Part shown: positions 3,501 to 58,700 of the stretch, one piece after another
How the letters are laid out: every line of letters starts with the position of its first letter
Position numbering within the stretch: position 1 is the stretch's first letter
NCBI GenBank assembly: GCA_020137815.1
Contig: CM035358.1
Location: 5,022,001 to 5,086,000 of the forward strand
DNA: 64,000 bases
From: Hormiphora californensis
Lineage: Eukaryota > Animalia > Ctenophora
Reading direction: 5' to 3'
Notes under the pieces: generated by a model
Database searches by the model: none
The model's input: the letters and a program-made list of their open reading frames with translations, nothing else
Told to the model about the DNA's origin: nothing
Position numbers and translations under genes: made by a program

Positions 3501-5876
3501 AGGCAGCTCTATATTATACAGCGAATAGTTGCAGCTTGCAGGGTCATGTCCTTATTATAATTACATGATCTGCTAGCTTAGATGGAGCGAGAGAGGGAGA
3601 GAGAGAGAGAGAGAGAGAGAGAGAGAGAGAGAGAGAGAGAGAGAGAGAGAGAGAGAGAGAGAGAGAGAGAGAGAGAGAGAGAGAGAGAGAGAGAGTGATT
3701 GTTGCAATCGTTGCATATATTGAGTTGCAATCTTGCCCGGCCTCACGACAGGCTCGAGTGCTGCACTCGGAGTGCAAGGCAAGTACTCAGAAAATGACTA
3801 GTCGGGAGACCAGTACACTCGCCATTAGGTGGGTTTATAATGCAGCATGATTATTGATTTATTACCAAGCTGAGTCACTCCAACAATGTTTTTGTTGTTA
3901 CGAGCGTGTTGACTGTTGGTAATTTAGCAATGCCCATAATGAGCAATGCTGGGTTACCAGCCCTGCTAGTGGTAACTTACCACTAGCAGGGCTTGCTTGG
4001 AATAGGGTTCGTGGTTTTTTATAGTGCATGCCCGTGTGGTATTCAGTTGATATGTGTTTACGCAGGATTGATAGGGGTTATGACGTTTGGGTCTTCATTT
4101 AGAAGGTGCAGCTATTGTTTCAGGGCGATTTGTCAGGACCTACAAATATATGTCAAAATATGTTTTTGATTTGGGTTTATTGTTTTATGGTTGACAAGTT
4201 ACTTAGAGCTTTTCGGATACTAAATAGTAAATCGATTTTTCATAGATTTTAAGCATTTTTCAGAACTTTTTGTCGTTTATTTCAATATTCAAAATAGCGT
4301 TCCTGATTTAAGACTTGATCTCGTATCTTGTCAAAATCTAACTTTCACATTTCACAGAATGAAAGTCTTACTTTTAGTACTGATACTTGGAACTCTGGCT
4401 GCGGGAAACCCCCATTGCGGGAGTGGTAAACTGCAGAAGGATTACAGGGGCAGAATCCACCGTACTAAGGAAGGAAATCTGTGCCAGAAATGGACCAGTC
4501 AACACCCTCATAAACACAACCTCAGGCCTTCTCAGTAAGTACCCAGAAAACTAATTTAGTATGCTCTATACCCTTCTTCTACACAATTTGTACATCATCA
4601 GAAAAGGTCCAACAAGGCAATATTCCATTCAAGATTTCAACAAGTTTCACATTATTTCAGGAAACCTGGAGAGGGTCTGGGTAACCACAATTTCTGTAGA
4701 AACCCGGATAACGAGCAGGGTGGAGCCTGGTGCTATACCATGAATCCTAAGGAGAGGTGGCAGTACTGCCCAGTTCCTCGTTGTGGTCCCAATGGAAGGC
4801 CTCGCCGAGGATAATTGAGAAATATTTAGTAGATTTAAACATTTCAATTGAAAAAGCTCCGTTTGTATCTTGTACCTCAACAACATTCACAATAAATATT
4901 GGATGGCCTAATTTAATTCTCTTCAAATCCCCAAAATTGTATGCTTCTATCGCAAGAAATTTAGTTCTAAGGTCAAATACACGTCCGATTTTGCTACCTT
5001 TGCTACCTTGAATTAATATATTCTCACCCCGTCTCACATGAACCGACTGAATCAGGAAATACTGGTCCCTAATTGGCTGATGACTAGTCACGTGACCTAA
5101 ATAACGAGTTCTTATTGGTTGTTTACTTGTTTCGGTCGGTTCCTGCCGTCTCACCTTATTTACAAACTCCACGGACCGGTTGGAGCTCAGACCGGAGCAG
5201 GATTCGCAGAGGGCACTATCCCACATATTGCTGTAGGCATCCCAAAGGCGCCGTATTACCATCGCATTGTCCGAGTCACGAAGGACTGTTGAGCAGTTGA
5301 CACTGCCGGTGATGTTCGTGTAGGTCTCTTTCACACTTGTGTACTGCGGGGGCAGGGGGTTAGTGGTGCAGTTCACACTTTTTTAATGTACTGGGGCAGA
5401 GGGAGAGGAGTTAGTGGGGGTGGAGGAGTTAGTGGATCAGTTCACACTTATGGGTGGGGGGGTTGAATATTGTACATTTGTGGAGAATAACAGTCTCAAG
5501 TGGATGGGCCGGGATTCAAACTCCATAATGAGGAGGGGTTGTTCATTATACATACTGGGGCAGAGGGTTAGTGGGTCACTTCACAATTATGTACTGGGGC
5601 AGAGGGTTAGTGGGTCACTTCACACTTATAACTAGGTATGTACTGGGGCGGACTGGGGGCAGGGTTTGAATGTTGTAAAATTAACCCAGTCATATGCCAA
5701 CCTACCTGTTTGTAACACGAGACACACAATTTCACGGGTTTAGTGGCCTTCCCCAGGCACTTGGTGAACTCTGTGGATGCTGTGGCGAATGCCAGCTGTA
5801 AATCTGAACACTCCTGGTCTAGCTTGTACAGTGAGACCAGGGTGGGGAGGAGAAGGAGAAGAAGAATGCTCCTCAT
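514..5876 (-). CDS. OSTM1: Osteopetrosis-associated transmembrane protein 1; exons 5706-5876, 5155-5343, 784-898, 514-695
   Basis: The spliced translation gives signal peptide [15 protein letters not shown], then [80 protein letters not shown] and [18 protein letters not shown]. This matches the OSTM1 cysteine pattern. All introns are GT-AG with consistent phases. Confidence 0.9.
1252..2642. mobile_element. Non-autonomous foldback DNA transposon, Kolobok-like
   Basis: Near-perfect ~605-bp inverted arms (1252-~1856 and ~2036-2642), termini GGGTACG...CGTACCC, flanked by TTAA at 1248-1251 and 2643-2646. TTAA plus RR termini fits Kolobok rather than piggyBac, which starts CCC. Confidence 0.8.
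3221..3459. mobile_element. Palindromic MITE
   Basis: TATAGTCGAGTTTTTT...AAAAAACTCGACTATA termini; imperfect complementarity continues over almost the whole length. Confidence 0.7.
3588..3695. repeat. (GA)n microsatellite
   Basis: Direct reading. Similar tracts at ~11650-11710, 15090-15195, 46708-46812, 47938-48112, 49612-49663, 50735-50810 and 53637-53740. Confidence 0.95.
4359..4814 (+). CDS. Secreted single-kringle protein (109 aa), nested antisense in an OSTM1 intron; exons 4359-4534 and 4661-4814
   Basis: [109 protein letters not shown]. It has a signal peptide, all six kringle cysteines and the YRG, CQKW, NFCRNPD and WCYT motifs. The intron is GTAAGT...TTTCAG. Confidence 0.92.
5038..5145. 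mobile_element. ~105-bp TIR mini-element, copy 1
   Basis: GAACCGAC..GAA/TTCGGTCGGTTC termini, flanked by a CCGTCTCAC direct repeat at 5029-5037 and 5146-5154. A second copy lies at 40286-40390. Confidence 0.75.
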
Positions 5877-55700: not shown

Positions 55701-58700
55701 GGGAGTGAAACTGAAACACAGGTGTACTGAGATAGGAGGGGAGTGAAACTGAAACACAGGTGTACTGAGATAGGAGGGGAGTGAAACTGAAACACAGGTG
55801 TACTGAGATAGGAGGGGAGTGAAACTGAAACACAGGTGTACTGAGATAGGAGGGGAGTGAAACTGAAACACAGGTGTACTGAGATAGGAGGGGAGTGAAA
55901 CTGAAACACAGGTGTACTGAGATAGGAGAGGAGTGAAACTGAAACACAGGTGTACTGAGATAGGAGGGGAGTGAAACTGAAACACAGGTGTACTGAGATA
56001 GGAGGGGAGTGAAACTGAAACACAGGTGTACTGAGATAGGAGGGGAGTGAAACTGAAACACAGGTGTACTGAGATAGGAGGGGAGTGAAACTGAAACACA
56101 GGTGTACTGAGATAGGAGGGGAGTGAAACTGAAACACATGTGTACTGAGATAGGAGGGGCGTGAAACTGAAACACAGGTGTACTGAGATAGGAGGGGAGT
56201 GAAACTGAAACACAGGTGTACTGAGATAGGAGGGGAATGAAACTGAAACACAGGTGTACTGAGATAGGAGGGGAGTGAAACTGAAACACAGGTGTACTGA
56301 GATAGGAGGGGAGTGAAACTGAAACACAGGTGTACTGAGATAGGAGGGTAGTGAAACTGAAACACAGGTGTACTGAGATAGGAGGGGAGTGAAACTGAAA
56401 CACAGGTGTACTGAGATAGGAGGGGAGTGAAACTGAAACACAGGTGTACTGAGATAGGAGGGGAGTGAAACTGAAACACAGGTGTACTGAGATAGGAGGG
56501 GAGTGAAACTGAAACACAGGTGTACTGAGATAGGAGGGGAGTGAAACTGAAACACAGGTGTACTGAGATAGGAGGGGAGTGAAACTGAAACACAGGTGTA
56601 CTGAGATATGAGGGGAGTGAAACTGAAACACAGGTGTACTGAGATAGGAGGGGAGTGAAACTGAAACACAGGTGTACTGAGATAGGAGGGGAGTGAAACT
56701 GAAACACAGGTGTACTGAGATAGGAGGGGAGTGATGTGTGTTGGGGGCTATATTACACTGATATCACAGTTACATTGATAACAAACCACATAACAGCGTG
56801 AGTTACAAACTACGTTACAATAGTAACAGCTCACAGTTATTGCTAACCACAGCATGGTTTGCAGCAATTTGCTTTGCTATAGGTATCTAAAAACTGCTGG
56901 GCTATTATAACAGAGGCGGCACTGTTGGGCAGCACATTTAAAGTTGTCTAGTTTTCACCAAACTCTGCAGTGCAAACTAGACAAGCAATATATCACTCTT
57001 GAAACACTGACAATACCATATATTGGCACGCAAACACAAATATCTCCAGTATAGAGATTGCAATGCTCCCGTTACCATGTTGCTATGGTGACATGGTGAC
57101 ATGTTGCTATGGTGATCACATACCTCATCACTTCCATTTGAGAGAGCTATCTCACTACCACTGATGGTTGAGCAGCTTCCCACGCTAAGGGTCGTAGTGA
57201 GGACTGTCAGGTCGGTCAGTCCGTTTAGATGCCTCGATAGGTAGATCTTGGGACCCTAAAAGTAAGAGGAAGTATAGGATCTTGGGGGTCTTAAACGATC
57301 CCTTATAAAAAAGAGAAATAGAGTGGGTTTGTGGTGGCAATTTAAACTTAGGCTTGAACTCACTGAAAGTTATAAATGAAATTCTAAAACTCATTTCTGT
57401 CAGAAATTTGGTAGCTCACAGTGATCCTAGCTTACCTGGTGAGATAGGTATGATATGTGTGGCATGTCAATGTTGTGTACCATGGACCCATTACTTGCTA
57501 ACCGGACCTCCACGCCTAACGAGCCGACTGCAATGAAGTAGGGTAGACAACTGTGCACCTGAGTTGGGGAGGAGGAACTAGTCAAAGACATCGAAAAATT
57601 AGGGATTTAGGGACACTGTGGTAGTAGGGTTAGGGTAGACAACTGTGGACATAAGTAGGGTGGTGGAATTAGTCAAAAATACTTGGGTAGTGGTAGGGCA
57701 AGGCTTGGTCTACGCGCTACCCATCCGGCATCTGGACACATGAGGGATGGTTTGGAGATTCAAATTGGATATTAGTTGATCAAGCTACTTACGAATTGTG
57801 GTTTTATGTTCCACTTGATATGGAAGAACATCTGCTCTTTGGGTCGTAGGGAAAACTGCTCTATCACAGAATTATCTGGGGAAGGGAGGGGTTGTTAATC
57901 ACAGAATTATCTGGGGAAGGGAGGGGGTTGTTAATCCGGGAGTCACATGGTTTACTGGTTGGGTGGGGGGCGTCTGGACGATATTTATGGGAGTCATGGC
58001 CAACTACAAAGACAACAAAACCATTGAGTCAATAGTATTGACTTTGTTACAACACGTGACCGAATATATCCCAGAAACTGTCCACCTCCTTGGAAGGCTT
58101 CCAACGGAAGCTGGTATAACTGGTAACTGCATTGTTATACCAACAGTGGGTCTACTAGACAATAGACCGGGGCCGGCTAGTATAATAGTAGATACTATCT
58201 ACCAGACTATCTACTAGATAGTCTGGTAGTCTGAATAAGACATCATGGAATGTATTCAATGATGCCTTGCTTGTTCAGACTATCCACTACCCCGGTCTAA
58301 TAGTCTCTAACAGCCTCACTGTTGTTATAACAACAGTTACAAATAATACCGTGTGGGGCAATAAACCCCCCCCCCCCCCCCAAGTACAAGCTTCCGTTGG
58401 AAGCCTTCCAATATAGTGAGTGAGGCGGGCAATTTCTAGTAAGTCAGCCGCATATAATAGTGTAGCTATATTAATACAGTTTGTGTAATAGTGTAGCTAT
58501 ATTAATACAGTTTGTCTCGTTTTAATTACTACCTTCAACATTGGTATGTTATCTAACTATATCTAATTCGCCTATTTGCGACATTGTTATTTAACTAGAC
58601 CAAAAAACAAAGGAAATTTGTTTGGAACACCCGTGGCCTTTTTCGATACTTGACGCTGCGGGAAATGCACCCATAATCTAAGCTATACTACTAGGTATCG

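What the first reader, a model, noticed from the sequence alone, without database searches (positions are those of the whole stretch)
5344..57935. Window-wide pattern: tandem duplications seeded on splice sites and a stop codon
Seen in five genes. OSTM1: branch/acceptor copies CTAACCCTCTGCCCCAG|TAC (5344-5650). CARM1: donor-adjacent array (13326-13586). DNPEP: donor arrays (17525-17607, 18034-18407) and a duplicated acceptor CCCTCGTCAG (17670-17712). MCM3: stop-codon repeat (19098-19257), donor x51, acceptor x3 and donor-like copies (39781-39880). GARNL3: acceptor x68, acceptor x2 (57861-57935) and a degenerate acceptor copy (57631-57680). Inference: either a mutational process targets exon boundaries, or boundary-spanning duplications survive because splicing removes the extra copies. 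Either would be a distinctive route to intron growth and satellite birth.
Basis: partly seen in the sequence, partly recalled or inferred. Interest (0 to 1): 0.8.

Follow-up and report, generated by a model that had tools for sequence, protein, structure and literature searches.

The report
Comb-jelly repeats crowd coding edges
In five genes of a comb jelly, short stretches at exon borders and at one stop codon are copied head-to-tail 2 to 68 times, a repeat type already known from lancelets and humans, and they are likely harmless by-products of DNA exchange that slips where conserved coding sequence ends.

Summary
The arrays are real. 52 introns were modelled in a ctenophore window. Junction-spanning copies exist at OSTM1, MCM3 (donor x51, acceptor x3), DNPEP, CARM1 and a CNH-domain gene (x68, x2); "GARNL3" is unverified. 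CARM1's named array and DNPEP's two "donor arrays" begin at intron bases +1 to +6 and hold no exon. Short-read contigs of other runs enter the CARM1, DNPEP and stop-codon arrays, and RNA contigs splice across the CARM1 array. This is the known lancelet "mirage"/human F7 type (PMC3087553, PMC1557585). The scan reported it before elsewhere in this genome and in others.

Boundary-spanning events are only borderline enriched (8 of 23, 3.3-5.1 expected). Wholly intronic duplications crowd intron ends (7 of 15, 1.2-2.5 expected), though the window was picked for this. In the stop-codon array all 4 variable sites are synonymous. Both points suggest exchange with working copies at coding edges, in addition to survival, and no link to splicing as such. 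No new intron is shown.

The parts
5330..5662 (-). OSTM1 intron 1 acceptor (working AG at 5344-5345) with about five upstream decoy copies; unit about 40 nt including branch-like CTAAC and about 14 exon bases
   Evidence: Pfam OSTMP1
13091..13149 (-). CARM1 intron 7: 19-nt segment starting at +3 of the donor, repeated 40 nt further on (new)
13330..13583 (-). CARM1 intron 6 array, 32 nt x7.9, starts at +6; no exon, donor not in the unit; same family as the DNPEP 17518 array, inverted
   Evidence: spliced out in RNA contigs X7 and X8
13956..14040 (-). CARM1 intron 4 acceptor with a 14-nt copy 71 nt upstream (new)
17518..17607 (-). DNPEP intron 3 (98 nt) almost wholly a 25-nt array starting at the donor GT; CAG|GTAA at both intron ends
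17670..17710 (-). DNPEP intron 2 duplicated acceptor, 26 nt apart; the downstream copy keeps the frame
17937..18000 (-). DNPEP intron 1 branch/pyrimidine segment duplicated up to -3 of the acceptor (new)
18035..18407 (-). DNPEP intron 1 10-nt array x36 starting at the donor (first unit is the donor, most copies differ at +3)
19095..19257 (-). MCM3 stop-codon array, 32 nt x5.1; four dead copies in the 3' UTR all still read [10 protein letters not shown]; 4 of 4 variable sites synonymous and mosaic
24244..26233 (-). MCM3 donor 12 array, 51 units of 33 exon + 6 intron bases; the second donor gives an immediate stop; common variant (14 of 51) is synonymous
31910..31955 (-). MCM3 intron 6, 11 nt x4.2 starting at +10 (new to the list)
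32606..32704 (-). MCM3 acceptor 4 x3 (32 nt, 13 exon bases); the upstream copy gives a stop
39781..39886 (-). MCM3 donor 4 with two short donor-like echoes (weak)
   Evidence: below threshold
54148..56734 (-). CNH-domain gene acceptor 7 array, 68 units of 35 intron + 3 exon bases; every third upstream acceptor is in frame, open in the 3- and 6-unit tests
57076..57115 (-). CNH gene intron 7, 16-nt segment at +9 of the donor, repeated (new)
57539..57680 (-). CNH gene acceptor 5 and its dead copy 92 nt upstream: exon part 1 difference in 20 (synonymous), intron part about 7 in 28, AG lost
57863..57936 (-). CNH gene acceptor 4 x2 (35 nt, 11 exon bases), 4-nt junction homology; the upstream copy frameshifts
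60994..61020 (-). third, distant copy of CNH acceptor 4 in the same intron, beyond TE-like inserts (new)
   Evidence: 26 matches in a 30-column local alignment

Best explanation
These are 'mirage'-type minisatellites: short duplications at the edges of coding sequence that likely arise when repair or recombination starting in a conserved exon slips at a few bases of homology just beyond it, likely grow by unequal exchange, and likely persist because the copy next to the exon is the one spliced (or the extra copies fall behind the stop codon). Shown: the arrays, their position on modelled junctions, which copy keeps the reading frame, splicing across the CARM1 array, and transcription of the stop array. 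Inferred: the origin by exchange with working copies or alleles, the growth, and the neutrality.
For: Frame and homology pick the first donor and the last acceptor. 0 of 61 modelled exons hold an internal repeat. Intron-only duplications abut intron ends, 7 of 15 against 1.2-2.5 expected (p 6e-5 to 3e-3), which survival alone does not predict. The stop array has no splice signal yet sits on a coding edge. Its 4 of 4 variable sites are synonymous (about 0.25 expected per site, p about 0.004-0.04), and two of the sites show all four combinations across copies, implying exchange. It starts at a 7-of-9 look-alike of its own end. The common x51 variant is synonymous, while 3 of 4 rare substitutions are not. 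Other haplotypes differ strongly in an intron-rich stretch (X5: 22 letters and 31 gaps in 800 nt). The cydippid Hormiphora is about 3.2% heterozygous with indel-rich non-coding DNA (PMC8527503 passages).
Against: The window was chosen for this pattern, and events were classed partly by hand. Spanning events alone are borderline (p 0.01-0.09). Over all arrays only 7 of 12 distinct exon-part variants are synonymous (p 0.014-0.26 by baseline). Exon-versus-intron divergence of the CNH copy is not significant (p 0.12). The copy variants were not seen as working alleles: three samples carry the same working copy and first dead copy. The CARM1/DNPEP family is dispersed, not a local duplication. Junction homology at x51 is only 1 nt. 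No RNA was laid on any junction-spanning array.
Confidence: 0.55

Rival explanations
1. Survival only: duplications fall at random in a repeat-prone genome with short introns, exon-internal ones are purged, and the edge crowding here is a selected-window effect.
For: Median collapsed intron is about 150 nt, so 3.3-5.1 of 23 events are expected to span a junction anyway, against 8 seen.
Against: Intron-only events abut the ends in excess under four nulls. Dead copies decaying neutrally should not show 4 of 4 synonymous sites. Unchecked notes from other pieces of this genome report similar densities.
Confidence: 0.25
2. Exon flanks are hot spots for breaks and insertions (for example open or linker chromatin), so local duplications and dispersed repeats both land there, without involvement of the other allele.
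For: One minisatellite family sits at two different donors in opposite orientation, and contigs from other loci carry the motif. A 106-nt palindromic element lies about 10 nt inside an OSTM1 donor.
Against: The second copy of that element lies about 160 nt from the nearest donor. It does not explain synonymous-only variation. No chromatin data here, and the one search for such a link gave nothing relevant (listing only).
Confidence: 0.12
3. A splicing-coupled or RNA-templated process copies splice signals, or the decoy sites regulate expression through unproductive splicing.
For: Many units begin at or contain the GT/AG. Every third x68 acceptor is in frame.
Against: A stop-codon array needs no splice signal. 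No copy examined holds an exon-exon junction (by eye). Some copies have lost the AG. RNA contigs show only normal CARM1 splicing, but contigs drop rare forms. Lancelet RT-PCR showed regular splicing (PMC3087553).
Confidence: 0.05
4. The arrays are assembly artefacts.
For: Copy numbers of x51 and x68 were not checked against reads.
Against: Contigs of DNA runs X1 and X5 enter the CARM1 and stop arrays, and X1 the DNPEP arrays, with 0 differences; an RNA contig spliced at MCM3 intron 17 holds 2.5 stop units. Units carry shared variants.
Confidence: 0.03

Closest known systems
Amphioxus 'mirage' minisatellites (Adh3, globins BflGb6 and BflGb9); PMC3087553, passages read; the Adh3 paper itself not seen
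   Same: Tandem copies spanning 5' or 3' exon-intron boundaries, units of tens of bases, many with AG/GT, normal splicing, and intron gain proposed as a possible outcome. The paper calls the generating mechanism unclear.
   Different: A ctenophore; up to 68 copies; about one splice site in six has a copy on or beside it (9 spanning plus 7 abutting of 104, counted by hand); a stop-codon equivalent; synonymous-only variation in that array; purely intronic edge arrays.
Human F7 intron 7 37-bp VNTR; PMC1557585, abstract and Discussion read
   Same: The first monomer holds the exon-intron junction, and only the most upstream donor is used: the same layout as MCM3 donor x51.
   Different: 5-9 sites there against 51 here. 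Site choice was tested experimentally there and is inferred from frame and homology here. Acceptor arrays are not covered by that paper.
Intron gain by tandem duplication of an AG|GT site (ATP2A1); PMC3265369, abstract only
   Same: Duplication of a splice-competent segment. DNPEP intron 3 has CAG|GTAA at both ends and is nearly all repeat.
   Different: The arrays here copy existing junctions. No new intron was shown, and intron positions in relatives could not be compared.

Membership tests
mirage minisatellite | tandem or near-tandem copies that span an exon-intron boundary | tested here: met
   OSTM1 A1, MCM3 D12 and A4, CNH A4, A5 and A7, DNPEP A2, CARM1 A4. Not met by the CARM1 13330 array, the two DNPEP donor arrays or the stop array, which are related but not members in the strict sense.
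mirage minisatellite | both donor and acceptor boundaries are affected | tested here: met
   one clear donor array (x51) and seven acceptor cases
mirage minisatellite | many but not all copies keep AG/GT | tested here: met
   51 of 51 and 68 of 68 units keep the dinucleotide; the CNH A5 copy has lost it
mirage minisatellite | regular splicing is undisturbed | tested here: inconclusive
   RNA contigs splice normally across the CARM1 array, but no RNA was laid on a junction-spanning array; for those only frame and homology were used
mirage minisatellite | length differs between haplotypes | tested here: inconclusive
mirage minisatellite | turnover and homogenisation among units | tested here: met
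   98% unit identity in x51 and x68, interspersed shared variants, mosaic stop copies
intron gain by tandem duplication | an intron absent in relatives whose two ends derive from one duplicated AG|GT segment | not testable with these tools
   no genome held and no genomic locus of a related ctenophore was fetched; DNPEP intron 3 is a candidate only

The most novel reading that the evidence does not exclude
In very polymorphic genomes, recombination that begins in a conserved exon and fails in the divergent flank is a mutation source of its own. It seeds duplications at every kind of coding edge, stop codons included, keeps dead copies exchanging with working alleles so that they vary mainly at silent sites, and can build an intron outright (candidate: DNPEP intron 3). 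That would supply the missing mechanism for mirage repeats.
Probability: 0.3. Interest if true: 0.62.

Novelty: new member of a known kind. Interest (0 to 1): 0.36.

Why it matters
The repeat type is known, but its origin was called unclear in the lancelet paper (PMC3087553). This genome has it at high density, and this window adds two handles: a stop-codon array that separates 'coding edge' from 'splice signal', and an excess of purely intronic duplications at intron ends. A genome-wide count plus population reads could settle whether mutation bias or survival dominates. The 51-donor and 68-acceptor arrays are also natural tests of splice-site choice in an early-branching animal.

Tried and rejected
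No whole genome is held, so the genome-wide null could not be run. A homolog search with a CNH exon found nothing; the representative search gave four hits, of which three were short single-exon-like proteins, so 'GARNL3' stays unverified. Looking for copy variants as working alleles was uninformative: X1, X5 and X7 match the working copy; organism B's contigs over the unit are 57-60 nt with 5-6 differences whose letters were not listed, and a paralog-like sequence confuses the region. The dispersed-motif scan of metagenome contigs gave one match whose context shows no repeat and looks like a bacterial gene: chance. The 106-nt element had no look-alike among earlier findings, so identity with the earlier-noted donor-crowding MITE is not shown. 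TE-internal arrays (63, 163, 10 nt) and microsatellites were left out of the counts; so were the stop array, DNPEP A2 and MCM3 D4 (the last two score below threshold), and arrays outside modelled introns (42205, 42611, 45825). Paper searches (9 of 10 used) found no genome-wide test of edge enrichment, no ctenophore mirage report and no stop-codon case. The library is partial and supplements were not opened. PMC10078293 (passages) concerns repeats that modulate splicing, not this.
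Full report
Setting. No genome is held. An MCM3 exon matches ctenophore proteins best once a multi-stretch fish hit is set aside (unnamed 97%, Bolinopsis microptera 95% over 64 aa), so the host is a ctenophore. I modelled 52 introns in nine genes from reading frames and GT/AG ends (two boundaries corrected). MCM3 was checked against ctenophore proteins, OSTM1, DNPEP, a kringle gene, a pentraxin-like gene, a GPCR and a sulfotransferase by Pfam, and CARM1 and DNPEP by solved-structure hits. 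The fifth gene has only weak CNH hits, so I call it the CNH gene.

Observation. Three arrays (CARM1 13330, DNPEP 17518 and 18035) only abut or start at the donor. The MCM3 39781-39880 echoes are weak. I found five more edge duplications and a distant third CNH acceptor copy. Local repeats are far above chance: 10 of 46 introns up to 700 nt, against 0.47 in shuffles.

Not an artefact. Short-read contigs of DNA runs X1 and X5 enter the CARM1 array with no differences, X1 enters both DNPEP arrays, and RNA contigs of runs X7 and X8 join the exons flanking the CARM1 array. X1, X5 and X7 hold the stop array, and X7's contig is spliced at the last intron and runs 2.5 units into it. One of the DNA runs may be the assembly's own source.

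Which copy works. Using the second MCM3 donor gives an immediate stop. Upstream acceptors at MCM3 A4, CNH A4, DNPEP A2 and CARM1 A4 give stops or frameshifts. At x68, one or two units upstream frameshift, while three or six are open. So the exon-proximal copy is the working one by frame and homology, as shown experimentally for the human F7 donor array (PMC1557585, abstract and Discussion). None of 61 modelled exons holds an internal repeat; one in-frame 90-nt coding repeat lies in the sulfotransferase exon outside that set.

Enrichment. I placed each of 23 intronic events at random in TE-masked, array-collapsed introns under four nulls. Spanning: 8 against 3.3-5.1 expected (p 0.01-0.09). Spanning or within 10 nt: 15 against 4.8-7.4 (p below 1e-3). 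Intron-only events within 10 nt of an end: 7 of 15 against 1.2-2.5 (p 6e-5 to 3e-3). The last class gains nothing from splicing relative to the intron interior, so survival alone does not predict it. The caveats are serious: the window was picked for the pattern, masks and classes are partly by hand, and without the nine reader-named events the result is 6 of 14 against 3.9 (p 0.16).

Silent variation. A lead from earlier notes holds in part. The four dead MCM3 stop copies all still translate to the same ten residues: 4 of 4 variable sites are synonymous, with a per-site expectation near 0.25, and two sites occur in all four combinations. The common x51 variant (14 of 51 units) is synonymous, while 3 of 4 rare substitutions are not. 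Over all arrays the count is 7 of 12, which is not decisive against a 0.4 baseline. Either the copies were taken from different working alleles, or units cycle through the working position by unequal exchange so that selection leaks into the array; both are recombinational. I could not see the variants as working alleles.

A complication. The CARM1 32-mer and the DNPEP 25-mer are one family in opposite orientation, and contigs from other loci carry the motif. Some donor-side arrays therefore come from a dispersed repeat and not from their own intron.

Mechanism. Most likely, duplications start where conserved coding sequence meets divergent, indel-rich flank (high non-coding indel heterozygosity is reported for Hormiphora, PMC8527503 passages; a different or unidentified species), slip at short homologies (3-4 nt exact at the stop array and CNH A4, 1 nt at x51), grow by unequal exchange and survive because splicing or the stop codon hides them. 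The arrays, the frames and one splice are shown; origin, growth and neutrality are inferred (0.55). Rivals are survival only (0.25), chromatin-type insertion bias (0.12), splicing-coupled or regulatory (0.05) and artefact (0.03).

Known kind. Tandem repeats spanning exon-intron boundaries are the lancelet 'mirages', with regular splicing, length instability, an unclear mechanism and a proposed route to intron gain (PMC3087553 passages). The scan has noted the same in at least five other pieces of this genome and in other invertebrates; these notes are unchecked and I count them as leads only. Nine paper searches found no genome-wide enrichment test or stop-codon case, in a partial library.

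Verdict. Real, mostly as described, a new member of a known kind. Edge-anchored copies add about 5.7 kb to about 38 kb of intron (hand sum), less than TE-like inserts and nested genes. No new intron is shown; DNPEP intron 3 is a candidate. Interest 0.36, for the stop-codon case and the testable edge bias.

Noticed in passing
window 34474-35526: A palindromic element (317-nt arms, 34565-35357) sits inside what looks like a sulfotransferase coding exon, between copies of an in-frame 90-nt repeat; the allele may be disrupted. The gene is nested in MCM3 intron 4 on the opposite strand.
   Followed up: partly
window 5040-5145 and 40288-40393: Two copies (90% alike) of a 106-nt element with inverted ends; one lies about 10 nt inside the OSTM1 intron 2 donor, the other is flanked by a 17-nt direct repeat. 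No look-alike among earlier findings.
   Followed up: partly
window 19252-19391: Contigs of X1 and X14 match the MCM3 last exon but continue with a different open-looking C-terminus and different acceptor flanks: a likely paralogous copy of this exon elsewhere in both organisms.
   Followed up: no
window 53148-53158: Two AG|ATTGA acceptors 10 nt apart in the CNH gene; only the downstream one keeps the long last-exon frame.
   Followed up: partly
window 45826-46634: A 102-nt array on the + strand whose units contain an acceptor-like pyrimidine tract and CAG, possibly a mirage of an unmodelled + strand gene with small exons between 44270 and 52200 (by eye).
   Followed up: no
window 4359-4814 and 61021-62389: A kringle gene nested in OSTM1 intron 2 and a GPCR nested in CNH intron 4, both on the opposite strand; the GPCR's 5' end abuts the distant acceptor copy at 60994-61020.
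   Followed up: partly
window 26797-30150 and 58590-60220: Two copies of an element carrying 163-nt internal tandem repeats, one with a 1.24-kb internal duplication; left out of the counts.
   Followed up: no
window 37300-39780: A strongly T-rich stretch in MCM3 intron 4 that by eye resembles a non-LTR retrotransposon remnant on the - strand (skew; not tested).
   Followed up: no
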